A stretch of DNA of 64,000 nt, from positions 2,263 to 66,262 of the IMG/VR virus record IMGVR_UViG_3300012665_000475; one strand, written 5' to 3'. Each line of letters opens with the position of its first letter. Position 1 is the stretch's first letter. A program made the position numbers and the translations under genes. A model generated the notes under the pieces. That model did not search any database. It was not told where the DNA came from and saw nothing but the letters and a program-made list of their open reading frames with translations. Positions 4,401-15,388 of this stretch are shown one piece after another. Source of the stretch: a virus (Duplodnaviria > Caudoviricetes).

Positions 4401-5548
4401 CTATTCCTGAAGTTTTAGGAACTCAAATTTCTTACGAGGGGGAATACGGCATTAGTCTTAACCCAGAAAGTTTTGCTAAGTGGGGTAATGACTTGTATTT
4501 TACAGATGCAAGACGTGGTGCTGTAATGGCATTACAATCAAATGGGTTATTTGAGATTTCATCTCAAGGTATGAAGAACTGGTTCAAAGCTAATTTAGAT
4601 ACTAATGTTGTAAAACTTGGTATGATTGATCCATACTTTGAGCACTATGTATTATCTGTAGACAATGATAGAAAGGTTAAGACTTGTGCATTATCTGTTA
4701 CTCCTACTAGTTTGTCATTTAGTGGACTAGCTCAAACTAAAACATTCTATATTGAGTCCAACTCTGATTGGGAGATAACGGTTCCAACAAATACTTGGGT
4801 TACCTTGAGTGACAGATTTGGCTCTAATAATCAATTGGTTAGTGTAACTGTTACTTCAAATTCAGTAGAGGCAAGGGATTTAGATATAACTATTAGTAGT
4901 TGTGCTGATGATGTTATTTTAAATATAAGCCAATCGATTGCTTATGATTGGTATGAATTATTAGATTGTGATACATCTGACATTTCTTATTCTACTCAGT
5001 ATACAGTTGGAACATTTGAATTAAATGATCGTGTTACTTATGGTGATACTACATTTAACATTGTTGATGTATTAAACGAGGAGCCTATTGGGTCTCTAAT
5101 TGAAATTAATTCAACAGGATTACAAGGATGTCCTACTCCTGCTGCTTTCTGGTATCAGTTGTTTAATTGTTTTGACAGTTCTACTGCTAACTCACAAAGT
5201 TATGCTCCAGGAACATTTGCTATAGATGACAGAGTTACGTCAGGAGGAAATACATATGTTATTACAGGCGAGATAGAATACAACCCTGGTGGAACATTGT
5301 TAGCAATTACTCCTACAGGTGAAACAGGATGTGAGACATTGACTACTTATTATGAGTTGTCAGAATGCTCTCCTGGTACTGGATACGCATATACTACAAT
5401 TGTTCCTGGAGCAATTGGTAGAAGATATGTTTTACCATATCCAACTGAAACATTCTATACATACACAGGAGCTACGCTTACACAAAGCACGGTTCCTCCT
5501 GGGTATAACGGTTCGATTCAAATTACATCGTTCTATAGTTGTCCATAA
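1445..5548 (+). CDS. Tail stabilization/muzzle protein (P22 gp10-like), N-terminal part, with C-terminal BACON-like domain and three Cys-bracketed modules
   Basis: 1367 aa; N-terminal MNKDLDP...YRDALNI, LFWTDNLNPPRRINI, FSYRYKY.DNEYSALSPF, KSNRDYEIGIVYLDDYGR and GSIQKL...ENKISKVL, YGISLNPESFA motifs. Tail SVTPTSLSF...ESNSDWEI...W resembles BACON. Confidence 0.75.
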   Translation: MIELQRNFLSGVMNKDLDPHFLPDGTYRDALNIIVADSDGTFVSEEGSHNGVAQNYLGNVLKGTDYELTNATCIGSLAYETNNSIYWLVASDYLDAIYEYNETLDLTTPILQATKTPTTTSLLGFNKEFFVTGINYINGLLFWTDNLNPPRRINIDRAKNYAVDGFTEADINVILAPPLAAPTINLYTQGEANNLENKFLYFSYRYKYLDNEYSALSPFTPVAFFPKQYAYDYGVSENVSMVNNFNTADITFNSGPANVKEVQLVFRDTQSTNTYVIDNLVKSLNDYSDNTEYSYQFKNNKVFTLLPIEQVNRLFDNVPIRAKSQELIGSRLVYGNYTQFFDLIKENKEPINPAFSVSFIPNSVVAGTPTPTFKSNRDYEIGIVYLDDYGRTTTVITPTENTNTVFIPASSAIKANNIRITIDGTYQPPAFATHYRFVIKQDKQEYYNLFPLTYFEDGQFKWFLINQADQDKISVGSYLFLKGLSNNTNVQYKVLDIQSKNANFLNTANVNQPAGVYFKIKIDDAVLPPITSYSDAQVSDSSSTDTPVFDRFSVAENAIFYGIGLNDMTTGASNAYSGVDDIRFYVQIDGASTFKYYATYKGTYKNLVASNVAITAGVDQVLTYSGLSCSINFASATGHTIDDYWVVNCVSTGGYSIFGGSTNESTLLYPTAFFTFTDWSISPSNDEDRPIKAGAIVTFKYKETDNADQWITQTFISTKDYVNIEEWFVEDYVYKKWIQYDGQSKNLGARNIVFRRGVASAINPSRISQGGSISTASLAYPVYMYFYTYQSTTSGANVDTNFNLQQSDYPSLFETVPVDTNQDIYYELSQTYPIIDGNHYGNVDNQNVALGAPAIVDLNTLDFNSDFNAFTFGNGVESFRIRDAWNAATMQFSPRANSTIEGYEQQTLVQALTYSGIYTETSAINRLNEFNLSLGNFKYLDRFFGSIQKLFSRDTDLIVLQENKISKVLYGKNLLSDSTGGGVVASIPEVLGTQISYEGEYGISLNPESFAKWGNDLYFTDARRGAVMALQSNGLFEISSQGMKNWFKANLDTNVVKLGMIDPYFEHYVLSVDNDRKVKTCALSVTPTSLSFSGLAQTKTFYIESNSDWEITVPTNTWVTLSDRFGSNNQLVSVTVTSNSVEARDLDITISSCADDVILNISQSIAYDWYELLDCDTSDISYSTQYTVGTFELNDRVTYGDTTFNIVDVLNEEPIGSLIEINSTGLQGCPTPAAFWYQLFNCFDSSTANSQSYAPGTFAIDDRVTSGGNTYVITGEIEYNPGGTLLAITPTGETGCETLTTYYELSECSPGTGYAYTTIVPGAIGRRYVLPYPTETFYTYTGATLTQSTVPPGYNGSIQITSFYSCP

Positions 5549-8899: not shown

Positions 8900-11800
8900 A
8901 TGGATAACGGTAAAACATTATATAATAAGTTAAGTGCTGAAAAATTATATACTAAATCATATAATGAATTTATTGATCAATTTGGTACGCCAGAGGGACA
9001 AAAGGAATTATATAATGCTTTAAGTTCTCAAAAGTTATACACAAAATCACAAGATGAATTTGTGAGTCAATTCTGGAGTGATAAAAAAAAAAATCCGTCA
9101 CAACCTACAGAAGAAGTTATTTCAGTTTCTGGAGAATCTGTTTCGCCTACGGTTCCTCAGCAAAAGGGTTCTATATTAAAATCTCCTACACAAGGAGAAA
9201 GCCAGGGTCTGTTGTTAATAGACCCATCAAAAAAGAAGAATAAATTCGATTACACCAATCCTGTTTTTTTTGCTCCTAAAGGAAGCGTTACTAAGGATGT
9301 TAATTATATTGGTAAAGCGTTAGGTAGTAAATCAAAAGATTTATCTATTAAGCAATCAGACTTAAAGAAAAGAGCTGATTTGTTGTCTAAGCAATATGAT
9401 GAATTAAATGCCTACATTGAATTAAACCCTAATGACCCATCGGTCAATGCTAAGGTTGCTGCATTAGAAAATCAAAAAGCATTATTAAACAAAGAGTCTG
9501 AAACTGTTAACAAAGATGTTACACAGTTAAATCAAGATGTAAAGGGATTAAATAAATTAGTCACTCAAAATTATGCGGAAAAAGCCAAGCAAGGTAATTG
9601 GGGTGGTGCTCTTTGGAATTCTGTTGTAACTGGATTCGAAAAGTATGGCCAAGGTATGCAAAGGGCAACCATTGATGCAGGTATTGAAATACTTGATTTA
9701 ATGGGAATACCTTATGCAAGTAAAGAAAAAGAAGCTGAGTTAAGAAACAAAGTAATTAAAGAATCAAAGGGCAAGCTTACCGAAGATCAAATACAAACAA
9801 AAGTTAAAGATCTTTCTAAGAAAGAAGTTATTAATGAGTTCAAGCCAATTTTAAAGAAAGGATATGAGGGAATAAAATCTGAGGGAACTACTGAGGAATT
9901 TATTCAAGAAAAAAAGAAATCAGGTGATATTCCTCAAGCTGTATTAGGTGTTGCTGAAAGTATACCTATGATGGCTTCAGGTGGATATGGTCGTTTCGCT
10001 ACAGGTGCAATGCAAATGTATGCTAATCTAAATGAAGAGATGGATAATAATCCTGCAACAGCTTCAATGGATGAAAACGAAAGAAAGAAGATAACACTTC
10101 CTATTGCGATTGTATCTGGGTTCTTAGAAGATTATGGATTTAGAAATGTATTAGGGAAAGGCACACCTTTGTTGGGTAGATTCACTAATATGGTATTGTC
10201 TCAGGTACCTAAAAATGCTACGTTAGGAGCTATAGAATTAGCTACTAAAAAGGTTGCAGAAAGTACCGTAGGCAAGATGATTCTACAAGGTGGAACTACA
10301 GCAGCAAAAGCCTACTTAAGTGAATTTGAAACAGGTGGTCTTCAGTCCGCTACAGAAATTGTTACTAAGGAAATTTATGATAAGGCAAATAATATTGACT
10401 TATTTGAAAATCCTAAATTACTTTCAGGTGAATTTTTAGATAAGGTTTTATACGATGCACATGTAGAGGGCTTAGGTGGTCTTATTATGGGTGGTACAAT
10501 TGCTGGTGCTCAAAGAGCTTTGTCTGGAAAACAAATGAGTGATGCTGACTTTGAAGAGTGGAGAGACTTAATGTTGGATGACAACCATATGACTGCCACT
10601 TTAGCTGACTTACACGTGCAAGTTATTGAGGGTAAGATTACTGAAGAACAGGCTAAAGCATCTGCAAAAGAACTAGCTAGTAGCAGAAAAATATTACAAG
10701 AAATACCTGAAAATCTTTCTGTTAAAGGACAAAGGGAAGCTTTTGCTTTAATTGCACAGAATCAAAAAGTGCAAAATGAGATTGATGATTTATCAGCTTA
10801 TATGGCAGATAAGAATCCTCAATTAGTTAAAAACATTGCTGCTGAAATTGAAAGCAAGCAAGGGATAATAAATAAAAATAACGAACAACTATCTAAAATT
10901 CCAGAAAATGCCATTCAAGAGCAAACAACAAGTGAAGTACCTGTACAGCCAGAAGCCGGAGTTAGCGGAGAAATGGCGAAAGGAGAACCCCAAGCAGAAC
11001 CTGAAGTCACTACCGAAGAAGTCAAAGCCGAAGAAGTAACACCTACTGAAGAAGAAGTTATAACTACAGCTGTAACAATAATTGATGCTGTAAATAAACC
11101 AAAAGTATTTACTTTAAATGGTAAAAGAGGTAGTCTATATACTGAAGATAATGGAACAGTTGTGTTTGAATCTGATGATAGAATTACTGAACTTGGTAAT
11201 ATCAAAGATATACAAGACCAATCTTTAGAAGAATTAGGTTTATCTGAAGAAGCTCCTTTAGAGATTACAGTAAATGATGACAACTCTGTAACTATAGAGG
11301 GTAATACTTTACTGAATAATTATAGCGATCCAATGGCCGCTATTAATTACGATGAGAATGGAAATGTTATATCAGTAAATTTAGATACTGACAATAATCA
11401 AAAGAGAACTATTCGTGGGCAACGTGCTCAAGAAATAGCTTACCAATACACACTTAAAAACTTTGAGCAAAATGCAACAGAACAAGACATCGATGAAGTC
11501 ATCGGAGCCATCGAGCAAACTCCAACAACTCAAGGAGTCACTGAGCAAGTTACCGGTGGCCCAACGGTTACAGTTACTGAAGAAGTTCAGCCTGAAGAAG
11601 TAGTTGAGCAAGTAACAGAAGAAGAACCTGTTCAACCCCAAAAGGGGAAGAAAGCTCCGTCAGCTAAAAAGATATTAGGTCAAGAGCCTGGTAAGAAAAT
11701 TCCTGTTAATGAGGTTACAGGATTAAAAGAAAAGTTAAGATTAGAATCTAAGGCTGCTAAAACAGGATTTGACTTTGCAGAAAAAGCAAGAAAGCTTATC

Positions 11801-14800
11801 AATGATTATGTAAAGAAAAATATTCAAGGTGCATTAAGCAAAAGAGAGCTTAATATTTTATTCAATGCATTAGGTAAAAAACTTGATACAGTAGATGCTA
11901 GAAAAAAATTCATAGAGAAAGTAAATAGTATTCTAAAGGGGTCTTTAGATAAGATTGCTATCAATGAATTGGATGCATTAAAAGCTACATTAAAGGCAGA
12001 AGCTAAAGGAGCAAAGGTTGCTACTAAAGCAGTTCAAACAAGTATTGCTAATGCTGTAGCTAAAATAAAGTCACTTCAAAAAGGAAATAAATTAACTCAA
12101 GCTCAGGCAAATGTTTTATTAAATGGATTAAAATCTAATTTAATGAACCCTACTGTACGTGAAAATTTCTTTAATAGAGTTGAACGTGTACTAGATAATG
12201 CTGAGTATGCAGCTAAGGTGGCTCAAGCTAATGATTTAAGAAGCAAAATTAAAACAGCTATTAAGTCAGATACTGTAGTTGATGATATTAAGATTGCAGC
12301 AAAAGCACTTGTATCTATTAGACCAGGATTAGTAGAAGATATTGATGAGTATATTGATTATGCTGAACAAGTATTTAATGCTGTACGTGGTATAAAAGTA
12401 GTTAATGGAGAAGTATTAGCAAGACGTGCAGCTGTATTGTCTGAGATAAACGACTATGTTAAAGAGCAGAAAGATATCCAAGATGAGATAAATAAAAATA
12501 TCTTATTAGATCAATACCAATATTTAGTAGATGCTAAACTAATTGACGATACAATGTCATTAGAAGCTATCCAAGATTACATATCATCTGTAGAAGAGAA
12601 TGTAGAAAATGCGGAATCTACTAAGTCTGAAATCGTAAAAGCGTATACTAAGAATGCCTTTGAGGGGTTCTCTGATGTTGTACGTGATATGATGGCCGAT
12701 GGAGAGATTGATGAATTGGATGCCGATTTTGATTTGATTAACAATTTCTTAAATATGGATATTGAAGCGTTGCCTCTTGATAAACAATTGGCCGCTGTAA
12801 ATGCATTAGAGAACTTAATCGTCAACGGTATTACAACTCAAATGGGAGCTGTTTATAAGTCATATGAAGGTGTTATGAATGCCGAAAAGGATTTAAACGC
12901 AGGCTTAGTTGCACAGCCTTTAATCTATGGGTTGGTAGGGCGTATTCCTCTTTTGGGTAAAGTATATAGTTCCTTATGGGGACGTTATGTATCAAAGGTT
13001 GATTCTTTGGTTGTTAATATGTTTAGAAGCACTGCTAAAGGTATTAAGTTTTTAAGAGATTCTGGATTCTCCGGAATTGTTAAAGGATTTGTTGATGGTA
13101 AAAATATCGCTAATAAATTTGCTGATAAATACTCAGAAAGATTCAAAGGCTCTAGACCAAATAACCAAGATTTCTATACCGCATACAACGCATACGAGCG
13201 TGGCATATTTGCTGACTTATCTAGAAATATTCTAAACGGAACTCCAGAACAAGTTAAAGAAGAGTTTGACAGAAAGATGGATCAATTACGTCTTACAATT
13301 GAAGAGTTAAGAAAGACAAAGAATAGTTTATTGGGTAAGAAAGCTGACTTATATGACCAGGTATATCAAAAAATAAAAGGTAAAAAAGATATTGATGGGG
13401 TTAAGAAAGAGATTGATCCTATCAATCAAACTGCTGTACAGGAATTCCAAAATGAATGGAAAAAATACTACCCTGAATTCAAAAGAATTGCTGCTGATTA
13501 TTATGGTATAGTTTTAGATGAGGATATAAACTATACACCTGAAATGTATGAAAAGTTATCAACAGATAAGGATAGTGATTTATTGACTAAAGGTTCATTT
13601 AAGATGAATTTTGATGCGATAAGAACTGAACGTGTAGGTACTTTACAAAAGAGTAAAAAAATAAAAGGATTGCCTAAATCTGGCAATGAGGTTTCCCGTG
13701 TTAGAGACTATGACTTTGATTCTAATAATATAAGAGCTCTAGAAAGAACTATTATAGATGTAAGAACAACGCCTTTTGTTCAGCAATATATGGGTTATGT
13801 AAATTCAAATGCATTTAAGGAAATGATTCCTGATTACGATCAAAGACAAATGATTAAGGATCGTTTGATGTTTAATATAAATGCGTTAAGAGAACGATCA
13901 GACACATCTAGTTTATATGAAACTAAGATTGCTTCTAAGATTTTATCTACTGTAAGCCGTGTGGGTACAAAAATTGGATTAGGATCTATGAATGCTGCTG
14001 TTAAGCAATCATTGCCTATGACATTCAATACATTAATCAATACTGTTGATGATCCACAAGCTTATCTTATGAGTTTTGCAGATTATATGAATGACGATGC
14101 TATTAAAGCATTGAATGAATCTGGATATGGTATTTCTTTGCGTGGTGCAGAGTCCCAAACATCCATAGACTTTGCAGAGAATTTAATAGAAAGAAATAAA
14201 AACAAGAATGTAAATCAATTAGTAGATGCTGCTTCCAATATAAGTGACTTTTATATTGAAACATTCTTAAAAAAGCCTGACGTTTTTGTGGCTAAAGTTT
14301 CTTGGTTTGCTTATTATAGAAAAAAACTAAAAGATTTAGGCTTAGATACAAACATTGATTGGAAAAATCACGAGATAAACGAGGAGGCTGCTGATTATGC
14401 TGAATATATGGTTCAAGATCAGCAAAATATGAACGTGTCCGAGTTAGGAGGAAAGTTGCTTGCATCTAAAAATCCAACTACAAAAATTATTCGTCAATTA
14501 GCATTTCCATTTGCGTCCTATCAATTTAACTTAAAGGATAAGAATGCAAGAAACATAACAATACTTACGTCTAAAAACTCTAACATTCAAGATAAAGCTG
14601 TTGCCTTACAATCGTTAGCATCCGGTATTGCTGAATCATATATATTCGAATGGGTTCAAAGAGGTATACAAGGATTATTACTTGCAGGAGCATACGCTTC
14701 TTTAGGTGGAGATGATAGAGATGAGGAAGATAAGTTATTGGATGAACAATTTAAGGACAAAATATTTTATGGTAAACTTTTTAATGAATTTGCCATTAAT

Positions 14801-15388
14801 TTACCTGAATTTACATCTGATTTGATATTATTAAGCCTTAATTCAGCTTTAGATATGATTGAGGGAGGTACTCCAGATGAGCAACTAAAAGCTAAAAAAG
14901 AAGCTGAGAAAGAAGCTAAGAAAAATAATACTGAATCATTCTTAGGAAAGAAGTTGAAAGGTAAACGTAAGCCTAAAAAGACTTTAGAAGAGAAAGAGTT
15001 AGCTAAGAAAAAAGAAAGGTTAGAGGCTCCATTTAGATTCTATGTAAAGGATCCTAAAGAAGGTGAGGGTTTGATGTCTTTAATTGGTGGCGTTCCGAAT
15101 GTTGCTTATGAAACATTGTATAAGATTTACCAAACGTATAAAGAAGCAGATAAAGGTTACTTCACTGATAAGTATGGAAACAAAACAGAATATACAGAGG
15201 AGCAGAAGAAACAACTAAAATTATCTTTGATACCTAGGGCTGTAACTGCTAGTACATTAGGACCAAGAGAGTTATTAAGCTATGGAACAAACATCGAGAA
15301 GATTATAAAGAAGCAAGCTTTAATGAGTAAAAAGAAAAATAAAGAAGAAAAATCTAAATCGAAATCAAACAAAAAGATGAAGTTCTAA
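8900..15388 (+). CDS. Giant internal virion/ejection protein (2162 aa)
   Basis: Long ORF closing the virion operon; mostly helical, with an N-terminal tandem repeat (LYNxLSxxKLYTKSxxEFxxQF twice) and two Glu/Pro/Thr-rich linkers. No DxDGD polymerase motif seen. Confidence 0.65.
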   Translation: MDNGKTLYNKLSAEKLYTKSYNEFIDQFGTPEGQKELYNALSSQKLYTKSQDEFVSQFWSDKKKNPSQPTEEVISVSGESVSPTVPQQKGSILKSPTQGESQGLLLIDPSKKKNKFDYTNPVFFAPKGSVTKDVNYIGKALGSKSKDLSIKQSDLKKRADLLSKQYDELNAYIELNPNDPSVNAKVAALENQKALLNKESETVNKDVTQLNQDVKGLNKLVTQNYAEKAKQGNWGGALWNSVVTGFEKYGQGMQRATIDAGIEILDLMGIPYASKEKEAELRNKVIKESKGKLTEDQIQTKVKDLSKKEVINEFKPILKKGYEGIKSEGTTEEFIQEKKKSGDIPQAVLGVAESIPMMASGGYGRFATGAMQMYANLNEEMDNNPATASMDENERKKITLPIAIVSGFLEDYGFRNVLGKGTPLLGRFTNMVLSQVPKNATLGAIELATKKVAESTVGKMILQGGTTAAKAYLSEFETGGLQSATEIVTKEIYDKANNIDLFENPKLLSGEFLDKVLYDAHVEGLGGLIMGGTIAGAQRALSGKQMSDADFEEWRDLMLDDNHMTATLADLHVQVIEGKITEEQAKASAKELASSRKILQEIPENLSVKGQREAFALIAQNQKVQNEIDDLSAYMADKNPQLVKNIAAEIESKQGIINKNNEQLSKIPENAIQEQTTSEVPVQPEAGVSGEMAKGEPQAEPEVTTEEVKAEEVTPTEEEVITTAVTIIDAVNKPKVFTLNGKRGSLYTEDNGTVVFESDDRITELGNIKDIQDQSLEELGLSEEAPLEITVNDDNSVTIEGNTLLNNYSDPMAAINYDENGNVISVNLDTDNNQKRTIRGQRAQEIAYQYTLKNFEQNATEQDIDEVIGAIEQTPTTQGVTEQVTGGPTVTVTEEVQPEEVVEQVTEEEPVQPQKGKKAPSAKKILGQEPGKKIPVNEVTGLKEKLRLESKAAKTGFDFAEKARKLINDYVKKNIQGALSKRELNILFNALGKKLDTVDARKKFIEKVNSILKGSLDKIAINELDALKATLKAEAKGAKVATKAVQTSIANAVAKIKSLQKGNKLTQAQANVLLNGLKSNLMNPTVRENFFNRVERVLDNAEYAAKVAQANDLRSKIKTAIKSDTVVDDIKIAAKALVSIRPGLVEDIDEYIDYAEQVFNAVRGIKVVNGEVLARRAAVLSEINDYVKEQKDIQDEINKNILLDQYQYLVDAKLIDDTMSLEAIQDYISSVEENVENAESTKSEIVKAYTKNAFEGFSDVVRDMMADGEIDELDADFDLINNFLNMDIEALPLDKQLAAVNALENLIVNGITTQMGAVYKSYEGVMNAEKDLNAGLVAQPLIYGLVGRIPLLGKVYSSLWGRYVSKVDSLVVNMFRSTAKGIKFLRDSGFSGIVKGFVDGKNIANKFADKYSERFKGSRPNNQDFYTAYNAYERGIFADLSRNILNGTPEQVKEEFDRKMDQLRLTIEELRKTKNSLLGKKADLYDQVYQKIKGKKDIDGVKKEIDPINQTAVQEFQNEWKKYYPEFKRIAADYYGIVLDEDINYTPEMYEKLSTDKDSDLLTKGSFKMNFDAIRTERVGTLQKSKKIKGLPKSGNEVSRVRDYDFDSNNIRALERTIIDVRTTPFVQQYMGYVNSNAFKEMIPDYDQRQMIKDRLMFNINALRERSDTSSLYETKIASKILSTVSRVGTKIGLGSMNAAVKQSLPMTFNTLINTVDDPQAYLMSFADYMNDDAIKALNESGYGISLRGAESQTSIDFAENLIERNKNKNVNQLVDAASNISDFYIETFLKKPDVFVAKVSWFAYYRKKLKDLGLDTNIDWKNHEINEEAADYAEYMVQDQQNMNVSELGGKLLASKNPTTKIIRQLAFPFASYQFNLKDKNARNITILTSKNSNIQDKAVALQSLASGIAESYIFEWVQRGIQGLLLAGAYASLGGDDRDEEDKLLDEQFKDKIFYGKLFNEFAINLPEFTSDLILLSLNSALDMIEGGTPDEQLKAKKEAEKEAKKNNTESFLGKKLKGKRKPKKTLEEKELAKKKERLEAPFRFYVKDPKEGEGLMSLIGGVPNVAYETLYKIYQTYKEADKGYFTDKYGNKTEYTEEQKKQLKLSLIPRAVTASTLGPRELLSYGTNIEKIIKKQALMSKKKNKEEKSKSKSNKKMKF
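10908..11039 (+). CDS. Overprinted 43-aa basic protein (MPFKSKQQVKYLYSQKPELAEKWRKENPKQNLKSLPKKSKPKK) in the +1 frame of the giant virion protein
   Basis: Read directly: ATG 10908 after AGAAA, TAA 11037-11039. The MPFKS.xQ.xYLY.xKPE.A.KW pattern resembles small stand-alone phage proteins I recall (not searched). Confidence 0.55.
   Translation: MPFKSKQQVKYLYSQKPELAEKWRKENPKQNLKSLPKKSKPKK
11472..11603 (+). CDS. Possible second overprinted 43-aa ORF (MQQNKTSMKSSEPSSKLQQLKESLSKLPVAQRLQLLKKFSLKK)
   Basis: Same +1 frame, same length, AAAATG start context, ends KK-stop; lies in the second acidic linker of the host gene. Confidence 0.3.
   Translation: MQQNKTSMKSSEPSSKLQQLKESLSKLPVAQRLQLLKKFSLKK

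What the first reader, a model, noticed from the sequence alone, without database searches (positions are those of the whole stretch)
10908..11039. A small basic phage protein overprinted inside the giant virion protein gene
Seen: in the +1 frame of an acidic linker of 8900-15388 is a 43-codon ORF, MPFKSKQQVKYLYSQKPELAEKWRKENPKQNLKSLPKKSKPKK, with an A-rich start context like other genes here. Lys-richness alone is expected from shifting GAA/GAG codons, but the ordered aromatic motif MPFKS.xQ.xYLY.xKPE.A.KW is not, and it resembles stand-alone small phage proteins I recall. Inference: a nested gene, with the host protein's odd Glu/Pro linker as its by-product; it may be a DNA-binding peptide co-expressed with the ejection protein.
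Basis: partly seen in the sequence, partly recalled or inferred. Interest (0 to 1): 0.8.

Follow-up and report, generated by a model that had tools for sequence, protein, structure and literature searches.

The report
Hidden small gene inside giant phage gene
A 43-codon gene for a very basic small protein is written one base out of step inside a 2162-codon phage gene; hundreds of related phages keep it under strong protein-level selection, yet standard annotation misses it.

Summary
Window 10908-11039 is an ATG-started 43-codon ORF in the +1 frame of the giant ORF 8900-15388.

- **Length is not the evidence.** Alternative-frame ORFs of this size are common in the giant gene. Conservation is the evidence.
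- **Recurrence.** The same ORF sits in the +1 frame of giant genes in 118 distinct nested sequences, including cultured Flavobacterium elemoviruses. It is not annotated in the two GenBank records inspected.
- **Selection.** dN/dS is 0.08-0.14 in the nested frame and 1.5-2.8 in the host frame. Nucleotide variation peaks at the nested frame's third codon position, and the conserved island starts sharply at the ATG.
- **Sample chosen by the host protein alone.** 46 of 80 giant genes carry it. The other 34 have an unrelated acidic linker.
- **Free-standing copies.** Two phages without the nested copy have a homologue starting 2 nt after the giant gene's stop.
- **Family.** The peptide belongs to a large uncharacterised small-protein family (1575 clusters; nearest model phrog_1375).
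- **Structure.** The AlphaFold model is a two-helix hairpin with a polylysine tail.
- **Function.** Untested. DNA binding or virion association is only an inference.

This scan has reported the same layout in other phage genomes. I could not show that those cases involve the same protein family.

The parts
10908..11039 (+). Nested gene: 43 codons plus stop, ATG start. It encodes a very basic small protein of the MPFKSK family. The model shows two helices and a polylysine tail.
   Evidence: -: sequence and translation.
- conserved in the +1 frame of giant genes, with dN/dS of 0.08-0.14.
- homologous to stand-alone proteins.
- AF2 pLDDT 86.6, helices at residues 6-15 and 17-26.
- the only copy of the family in the complete 66,262-bp genome.
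8900..15388 (+). Host gene: a 2162-codon ORF for a giant putative virion or ejection ('polyvalent'-type) protein. It is read through the overlap in frame 0.
   Evidence: -: one open frame.
- upstream neighbours match PHROG virion structural families.
- homologous giant genes are annotated as 'structural protein'.
- no Pfam domain passes threshold in the window's own protein.
- the host frame has no stop across the overlap in 118 of 118 distinct nested copies.
10907..11041 (+). Host-frame segment overlapped by the nested gene (about residues 670-714). It is an acidic Glu/Pro/Val-rich linker whose sequence is dictated by the nested frame.
   Evidence: -: an island of nucleotide conservation that begins at the ATG. 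Host codon position 3 is the least variable (entropy 0.22, against about 1.7 in the flanks).
- host-frame dN/dS is 2.8 and 1.5.
- the segment is absent from 34 of 80 homologous giant genes.
10883..10907 (+). A-rich leader of the nested ORF, the presumed Bacteroidota-type translation initiation region. It has no Shine-Dalgarno sequence.
   Evidence: -: mean A fraction at -20..-1 is 0.58 in 95 distinct contexts, against 0.36 for the gene background and 0.35 for other ATGs in the same giant ORFs.
- A frequency is 0.78 at -3, 0.84 at -11, 0.73 at -12 and 0.78 at -13.
- These positions match the positive determinants measured in Flavobacterium johnsoniae (PMC6847099).
9917..10579 (+). Gly-rich conserved domain of the host protein, upstream of the nested gene. 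It served as the anchor for a sample of relatives chosen without reference to the nested frame.
   Evidence: -: most relatives are only 23-36% identical to the window here.
- in relatives retrieved with a profile of this domain, the nested ORF lies about 820-1380 nt downstream of the domain start.

Best explanation
**What it is.** 10908-11039 is a real protein-coding gene wholly nested in the +1 frame of the giant virion-protein gene 8900-15388. It is a member of an old and widespread family of small phage proteins. The family shares an N-terminal MPFKSK motif, a two-helix hairpin built on conserved aromatic and Pro residues, a K-x-L-P motif and a polybasic tail.

**Which frame came first.** The nested frame is the ancestral and dominant coding frame in this stretch. 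The giant protein's acidic Glu/Pro linker is the passive read-out of the same DNA one base earlier. It is kept only free of stops.

**How it is expressed (inferred).** Both products come from the late structural mRNA. The small protein starts by internal initiation at its invariant ATG, behind an A-rich, Shine-Dalgarno-less leader of the kind Bacteroidota ribosomes use.

**What it does (inferred, about 0.3).** The hairpin docks on a virion, packaging or ejection component, and the Lys tail binds nucleic acid. On this reading the peptide works alongside the giant protein in the capsid or during genome delivery.
For: **Shown**
- Identical architecture (ATG start, +1 offset, 41-66 codons) in all 80 best loci of 347 found in viral contigs. 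The same holds in elemoviruses and MW202828, whose giant genes share no detectable DNA similarity with the window's.
- Nested-frame dN/dS is 0.076 and host-frame dN/dS is 2.78. In the sample chosen without reference to the nested frame the values are 0.14 and 1.54.
- Nucleotide entropy by nested codon position 1/2/3 is 0.42/0.22/0.86. The flanks show the normal host pattern, 1.5/1.3/1.7, with a sharp edge at the ATG.
- In loci chosen only by the host-frame domain, 46 of 80 carry the nested ORF. Across pairs, the peptide is more conserved (0.53/0.63/0.81) than that domain (0.42/0.50/0.68), the linker (0.30/0.36/0.44) and the host-frame reading of the overlap (0.39/0.44/0.59).
- Peptide subtypes follow the clades of the host-domain tree. 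Presence or absence needs 6 changes, against 21.9 for shuffled labels.
- 1575 homologous protein clusters, mostly free-standing.
- In two phages whose giant gene lacks the nested ORF, a free-standing copy starts 2 nt after the giant gene's stop.
- The nested copy is the only copy in 6 of 6 nested-positive genomes checked.
- The AF2 model is confident.
- The A-rich leader matches known Flavobacterium initiation determinants.

**Inferred**
- The functional link to virion or ejection proteins. It rests on three observations: nesting in or adjacency to giant genes; about a fifth of the top hits being N-terminal fusions to variable C-terminal parts, several of them Gly/Ala-rich membrane-like segments; and free-standing copies in late, packaging or morphogenesis regions.
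Against: - There is no direct evidence of translation.
- The function is unknown. There is no Pfam family, no solved-structure relative, and phrog_1375 is unannotated.
- Contexts of free-standing homologues are heterogeneous: before a holin, between portal and head genes, and near terminase genes.
- 8 of 10 related genomes that lack the nested ORF have no copy at all. Four of those eight records are under 95% complete. The protein appears dispensable for this kind of phage.
- Standard dN/dS estimators are biased in overlapping genes, so the values are comparative and not absolute.
Confidence: 0.85

Rival explanations
1. The conserved element is a host-frame protein motif, such as a processing site or docking motif in the giant protein's linker. 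On this view the open +1 frame is a by-product of Glu/Gln-rich codons.
For: - The host frame is also more conserved over the overlap (column identity 0.67) than in its flanks (0.26-0.40).
- A second partial copy of the host-frame motif occurs in the elemovirus gene, with only a 10-codon +1 ORF (L002 at 3187).
Against: - Variation is concentrated at host codon position 1 and is lowest at host position 3, the reverse of a host-frame-selected gene.
- Host-frame dN/dS is above 1, while the nested frame gives 0.08-0.14.
- The motif is missing from 34 of 80 homologous giant genes.
- The +1 peptide has 1575 homologous clusters, mostly free-standing and not overlapped by any giant gene.
Confidence: 0.02
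2. The +1 sequence is not translated from its own ATG. Instead it is reached by programmed +1 frameshifting of ribosomes translating the giant gene, which gives a truncated giant protein with a basic C-terminal tail (compare T7 10A/10B and lambda G/GT).
For: - One metagenomic protein (P0018, 1075 aa) is an N-terminal giant-protein part fused in frame to the small peptide at its C-terminus.
- The A-rich run lies just upstream of the junction.
Against: - The ATG is present in every copy examined.
- In several loci a +1-frame stop lies immediately before the ATG (L147, L149, L162).
- Free-standing homologues begin with the same Met-Pro-Phe.
It may be an indel or an assembly error.
Confidence: 0.05
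3. The conservation reflects a nucleic-acid element (an RNA structure, a packaging or regulatory site) or an antisense gene (the minus-strand ORF 10915-11283), and not a sense +1 protein.
For: - The 130-nt island is far more conserved at the nucleotide level than anything around it.
- A 122-codon antisense ORF overlaps it in the window, and shorter antisense ORFs overlap it in L001 and L002.
Against: - The variation has a three-base periodicity locked to the +1 sense frame, with conservative replacements such as K/R, Y/F and L/V/I.
- The antisense ORF's wobble position coincides with the most conserved position, nested codon position 2 (coordinates, entropies).
- The island has protein-level homology to free-standing genes whose DNA has diverged.
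Confidence: 0.02
4. The nested ORF is a fossil. On this view a small gene was captured in the giant gene's linker and is no longer expressed or functional in this phage lineage.
For: - Many relatives do without the gene.
- L133 and L134 carry a copy truncated to 29 codons.
Against: - Purifying selection was measured among the nested copies themselves, across lineages whose flanking sequence is saturated with change.
- The ATG and the A-rich leader are maintained.
- The nested copy is the sole copy in every nested-positive genome checked.
Confidence: 0.03

Closest known systems
Rz/Rz1 spanin genes of phage lambda (and T7 18.5/18.7): Rz1 is wholly embedded in the +1 frame of Rz. This comparison is from my own knowledge.
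   Same: - A complete small gene with its own start and stop lies inside a larger phage late gene, on the same strand, in the +1 frame.
- Both frames encode proteins.
- Gene callers usually miss the inner gene.
   Different: - Rz1 is an outer-membrane lipoprotein with a signal peptide and a lipobox Cys, and it binds Rz. The window's peptide has no Cys and no hydrophobic signal, and it is extremely basic.
- The host gene here is a giant multi-kilobase virion-type gene, and the overlap falls in a linker of it.
- No physical partnership between the two products has been shown.
phrog_1375 and unannotated small phage proteins such as Streptomyces phage FlowerPower gp48 (YP_009838084.1) and phage 023Pt_psg01 URG13095.1
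   Same: - They share the N-terminal Met-Pro-Phe/Tyr-Lys-Ser motif, the conserved Q, aromatic, Pro, Ala and Trp positions, and a basic tail.
- They are of similar size, 39-72 aa.
- They are encoded in late or structural regions.
   Different: - Those copies are free-standing genes, whereas the window's copy is overprinted by a giant gene.
- The window peptide's match to the PHROG model is weak (E=0.008). Relatives reach 2e-5.
- The family has no assigned function.
Overprinted genes of Microviridae (phiX174 B in A, K in A/C, E in D) and overlapping viral genes in general (review PMC8227390)
   Same: One DNA stretch is read in two frames. One frame is under strong selection and the other is compositionally odd or disordered.
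   Different: - In those cases the nested gene is usually the young, de novo one. Here the nested gene belongs to a large older family, and the host gene's linker looks like the derived reading.
- The genome here is a 66-kb dsDNA podophage-type genome, so it is not size-constrained.
DUF3008 (Pfam PF11450)
   Same: - I recalled a resemblance at the N-terminus (MP-x-KSK-x-Q) and in a C-terminal LPEK-like motif.
- The protein-atlas search named it as the nearest cluster with any Pfam family (score 0.84, on 15% of that cluster's members).
   Different: None of the 110 family members, and not the window peptide, matches the Pfam model at E<=1. It is therefore not filed as a member.
Polyvalent proteins of phages and conjugative elements (Iyer et al. 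2017, PMC5512222), as a description of the host gene
   Same: - It is a giant multi-module protein encoded at the end of a virion module, with long linkers.
- Relatives carry zincin-like HExxH motifs and a DUF3293 annotation.
   Different: - The window's own protein has no Pfam domain above threshold.
- That paper does not mention out-of-frame genes nested in such proteins.

Membership tests
Out-of-frame embedded phage gene (Rz1-in-Rz type architecture) | A complete ORF with its own start and stop, wholly inside a larger same-strand ORF, in another frame | tested here: met
   The ORF runs 10908-11039 with an ATG start and a TAA stop. It sits at offset +1 inside 8900-15388.
Out-of-frame embedded phage gene (Rz1-in-Rz type architecture) | Protein-level purifying selection on the embedded frame | tested here: met
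   dN/dS is 0.076, and 0.14 in the sample chosen without reference to the nested frame. Variation peaks at the embedded frame's third codon position.
Out-of-frame embedded phage gene (Rz1-in-Rz type architecture) | The host frame stays open across the overlap and continues as one gene | tested here: met
   There are no host-frame stops in 118 of 118 distinct nested copies. Free-standing homologues average 2.1 stops in the equivalent frame. Host ORFs continue for hundreds to thousands of codons on both sides.
Out-of-frame embedded phage gene (Rz1-in-Rz type architecture) | Independent translation of the embedded gene shown experimentally | not testable with these tools
   The only support is the invariant ATG and the A-rich leader.
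Rz1-type spanin subunit | N-terminal lipoprotein signal peptide with a lipobox Cys | tested here: not met
   The peptide has no Cys and no hydrophobic N-terminal segment. It has 14 Lys in 43 residues.
MPFKSK small phage protein family (nearest library model phrog_1375) | Significant profile similarity to free-standing family members over the whole core | tested here: met
   A profile of the nested peptides finds 1575 clusters at E<=1e-3 and 29 at E<=1e-10, mostly aligned from residue 1. The joint alignment A6 has M1 and Q8 invariant, and P2, F3, S5, P17, A20, L35 and P36 at 90% or more.
MPFKSK small phage protein family (nearest library model phrog_1375) | Match to the phrog_1375 HMM | tested here: inconclusive
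   The window peptide scores E=0.008. Free-standing relatives score between 2e-5 and 1e-2.
DUF3008 (PF11450) | Match to the Pfam model at or near its gathering score | tested here: not met
   The window peptide has no match at E<=1, and neither does any of the 110 family members. The only link is an atlas lead at score 0.84.
Polyvalent virion protein (host gene; Iyer et al. 2017) | Several recognisable effector or enzyme domains in one giant polypeptide delivered with the virion | tested here: inconclusive
   - No Pfam or PHROG family passes for the window's protein.
- Relatives show HExxH motifs and a DUF3293 note.
- Neighbouring genes match virion structural PHROGs.

The most novel reading that the evidence does not exclude
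The small basic protein may be an obligate partner of the giant protein it is written inside. Its two-helix hairpin would be a docking or capsid-targeting module, and its Lys tail would pair with DNA or with the acidic linker encoded by the very same nucleotides. One DNA stretch would then yield two products that work on, or bind, each other. On this view, the same module placed at the N-terminus of variable cargo proteins in other phages would act as a general virion-incorporation tag.
Probability: 0.15. Interest if true: 0.8.

Novelty: new member of a known kind. Interest (0 to 1): 0.62.

Why it matters
- **A missed gene.** A conserved protein-coding gene is absent from annotation in hundreds of uncultured Bacteroidota-type podophage genomes. 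The two GenBank records inspected, one of them a cultured Flavobacterium elemovirus, annotate only the giant CDS.
- **A caution about 'linkers'.** An odd acidic linker in a giant phage protein can be the shadow of another gene. This matters for domain parsing and for evolutionary-rate analysis of such proteins.
- **A first clue for a large family.** This uncharacterised small-protein family has at least 1575 clusters at 50% identity. Its repeated link to giant virion or ejection protein genes, whether nested, immediately downstream or fused, gives a first handle on its function.
- **A testable system.** Flavobacterium sp. BAL314 and its elemoviruses are in culture, so the question can be taken to the bench.
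- **An unusual direction of overprinting.** The nested frame appears to be the older one.

Tried and rejected
The contigs behind P0003-P0018 could not be inspected, including the fused P0018.
Binding of the peptide to the giant protein's Gly-rich domain was not tested.

**Searches that returned nothing useful**
- blastn of the whole giant gene against phage records: no match.
- Pfam for the peptide and for 110 family members: nothing consistent, and DUF3008 was not hit.
- PDB by sequence: only designer repeat proteins, judged artefacts.
- Foldseek against PDB: no match.
- VIA-align wide: best Z 2.2, uninformative for a 43-residue hairpin.
- BFVD: only uncharacterised family members.
- Pfam and PHROG on longer N-terminal-fusion relatives: no informative domain.
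- Literature searches for the motif, DUF3008, phrog_1375 and elemoviruses: nothing on this gene.

**Approaches that failed and were replaced**
- Two alignments were too divergent to seed contig scans. Subsets were used instead.
- A fixed-offset alignment of the upstream host domain was misaligned and discarded (A3).

**Ideas considered and dropped**
- Many hits lie on 4.5-7 kb contigs, which suggested Microviridae and a J-like protein. I rejected this because those contigs encode T7- or Sf6-type terminases and a portal, so they are fragments of tailed phages.
- The antisense ORF 10915-11283 was rejected as the selected frame, because its wobble position falls on the most conserved position.
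- The second +1 ORF at 11472-11603 is kept only in relatives about 96% identical and is not found in the 63%-identical relatives. There is no support for coding.
Full report
**Observation.** It lies at offset +1 inside the single 2162-codon ORF 8900-15388. The host protein there reads as an acidic Glu/Pro/Val-rich stretch. ORF length is not evidence: the giant gene contains nine + strand alternative-frame ORFs of 30 codons or more, and four of 43 or more. The window is nearly the whole of a complete 66,262-bp virus record with direct terminal repeats. The genes upstream of the giant ORF match PHROG virion structural families. The giant protein itself matches no Pfam or PHROG family.

**Recurrence.** tblastn of the 43-mer against cultured-phage records hit 68 Flavobacterium elemovirus records and the uncultured podovirus MW202828. 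In the two records inspected, the match is an ATG-started ORF of 42 or 43 codons at offset +1 inside a giant gene annotated as a single CDS, with no small CDS annotated. The window's giant gene has no detectable nucleotide similarity to any phage record.
- A scan of viral contigs found 347 confirmed loci.
- In all 80 loci kept, the ORF starts with ATG, has 41-66 codons and is nested at +1 in an open frame of about 760 to more than 2600 codons.
- Its position in the host gene ranges from codon 382 to codon 1294, behind very different N-terminal repeat architectures.
- The neighbouring host-frame domain is only 24-36% identical to the window's in most of these loci, while the peptide is 63-95% identical.

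**Which frame is selected.**
- *72 distinct 114-nt blocks.* Nucleotide entropy by nested codon position 1/2/3 is 0.42/0.22/0.86, so variation peaks at the nested wobble position, which is host position 1. Amino-acid column identity is 0.89 in the nested frame and 0.66 in the host frame.
- *dN/dS (Nei-Gojobori).* It is 0.076 in the nested frame (dS 1.48) and 2.78 in the host frame (dS 0.10).
- *Flank control.* In a codon alignment of the host frame, the flanks show the normal pattern (entropy about 1.5/1.3/1.7, identity 0.26-0.40). The overlap shows 0.86/0.41/0.22, and the change is abrupt at the ATG.

These loci were found through the nested frame, so I drew a second sample using only a profile of the host-frame Gly-rich domain.
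- 46 of 80 giant genes carry a nested homologue about 820-1380 nt downstream of the domain start, including much more divergent subtypes.
- In this sample dN/dS is 0.14 in the nested frame and 1.54 in the host frame.
- In pairwise comparisons the peptide is more conserved than the domain, the upstream linker and the host reading of the overlap at every divergence level.
- The remaining 34 genes have an unrelated acidic linker at that place, so the giant protein does not need this sequence.
- On a tree of the host domain, presence is clustered (6 changes, against 21.9 for shuffled labels, 0 of 500 shuffles as low). Peptide subtypes follow host clades, which indicates long vertical co-inheritance with several losses or gains.

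**Homology to free-standing genes.**
- A profile of the nested peptides against 1.84 billion representative proteins found 1575 clusters at E<=1e-3. Most are proteins of 43-75 residues aligned from residue 1. About a fifth of the top 150 are N-termini of longer, variable proteins, several of them with Gly/Ala-rich membrane-like segments.
- Annotated examples are FlowerPower gp48, just before the holin, and a 39-residue protein between portal and head genes in phage 023Pt_psg01.
- Other free-standing copies lie on fragments of tailed phages near terminase and portal genes.
- In two of ten related genomes whose giant gene lacks the nested ORF, a free-standing copy starts 2 nt after the stop of the giant gene. 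The giant gene is 2702 codons in the genome where it was read in full. The other eight have none.
- In six of six nested-positive genomes, the nested copy is the only copy.
- The host frame has no stop across any of 118 distinct nested copies. Free-standing copies average 2.1 stops in the equivalent frame. Both frames are therefore constrained in the nested state.

**Anatomy and likely mechanism.**
- *Structure.* AlphaFold2 with a 110-sequence alignment gives a confident model (pLDDT 86.6). It has helices at residues 6-15 and 17-26 and an extended basic tail.
- *No relatives of known function.* No solved or annotated structure resembles it. No Pfam family matches any member, and DUF3008, which I recalled and the atlas hinted at, is not hit.
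- *Initiation context.* The 20 nt before the ATG are A-rich: 0.58 in 95 distinct contexts, against 0.36 for the background and 0.35 for other ATGs in the same genes. A frequency is high at -3 and at -11 to -13. These are the positions shown to promote initiation in Flavobacterium johnsoniae, which lacks Shine-Dalgarno use (PMC6847099).
- *Expression (inferred).* I infer internal initiation on the late mRNA.
- *Function (inferred, about 0.3).* The repeated association with giant virion or ejection genes (nested, adjacent or fused) and the polybasic tail make a virion- or DNA-associated accessory role the best guess. It is an inference only.

**Rivals.**
- A host-frame motif, a nucleic-acid element and the antisense ORF are each contradicted by the frame-locked variation and by the free-standing protein homologues.
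- Programmed frameshifting is suggested only by one fused metagenomic protein (P0018) whose DNA I could not inspect. It is opposed by the invariant ATG, by stops directly before the ATG in some loci, and by homologues that start at the same Met.
- A fossil gene is opposed by selection measured among the nested copies themselves.

**Comparison and novelty.**
- The architecture is that of Rz1 inside Rz (own knowledge). The product is not a spanin, because it has no signal peptide and no Cys.
- The protein belongs with phrog_1375-type uncharacterised small proteins.
- The polyvalent-protein paper does not mention nested out-of-frame genes, and text searches found nothing on this family.
- This scan's own notes report the same layout, a small gene nested at +1 in a giant phage virion gene, in several other genomes. 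Look-ups with this peptide found only one other window, where the nested ORF had not been noted. Those notes are unchecked and do not count as support.

I class the finding as a new member of a known kind. It is well supported as a gene, and its function is unknown.

Noticed in passing
It is intact only in relatives about 96% identical. It is not found in the 63%-identical relatives L085-L087. Weak similarity to L036 and L043 is no better than the host-frame similarity there.
   Followed up: partly
P0018 (metagenomic protein, 1075 aa; no locus available): The N-terminal part of a giant protein is fused in frame to the small peptide at its very C-terminus. It could be a natural indel variant, an assembly error or a hint of trans-frame expression. 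The contig could not be fetched.
   Followed up: no
L133 and L134, nested ORF at 4917: The nested ORF is truncated to 29 codons by a stop after the second helix, so the K-x-L-P motif and the basic tail are lost while the hairpin is kept.
   Followed up: no
L002 3187-3219 (MT497078, elemovirus giant gene): A second copy of the host-frame motif lies about 400 nt upstream of the real nested gene. Its +1 ORF begins with the family's MPFKSK motif but stops after 10 codons. It may be a decayed duplicate.
   Followed up: no
L001 6001-6132; L002 3583-3711; L113, L114 and L126 near 4941: A subfamily of the nested peptide carries two conserved Cys (A-C-Y ... D-C-K-K-W) and a two-residue insertion in the second helix. 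This could be a disulfide or a metal site that the window's peptide lacks.
   Followed up: no
L254 90-266 (-) and 269-8377 (-); L253 1468-1656 (-): In the L143/L152 clade the small gene is free-standing and starts 2 nt after the stop of the giant gene (2702 codons in L254; only the last 498 codons are in L253). The spacing suggests translational coupling.
   Followed up: partly
P0065 (209 aa): In this protein the family's core is followed by a C-terminal region with a ParB/sulfiredoxin-like D-G-x-H-R motif. Such domains are typical of polyvalent proteins. I saw this by eye only, and Pfam gave no hit.
   Followed up: no
window 8900-9100 and the starts of giant ORFs in L003-L087: The N-termini of the giant proteins are tandem repeats of about 30 residues, of several unrelated types. 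They are usually closed by a K-K-K-[ED] punctuation. The nested gene persists behind all of these types.
   Followed up: no
window 10915-11283 (-): A 122-codon antisense ORF spans the nested gene. Its wobble positions fall on the most conserved nucleotides, so it is most likely an artefact of the stop-poor composition.
   Followed up: yes
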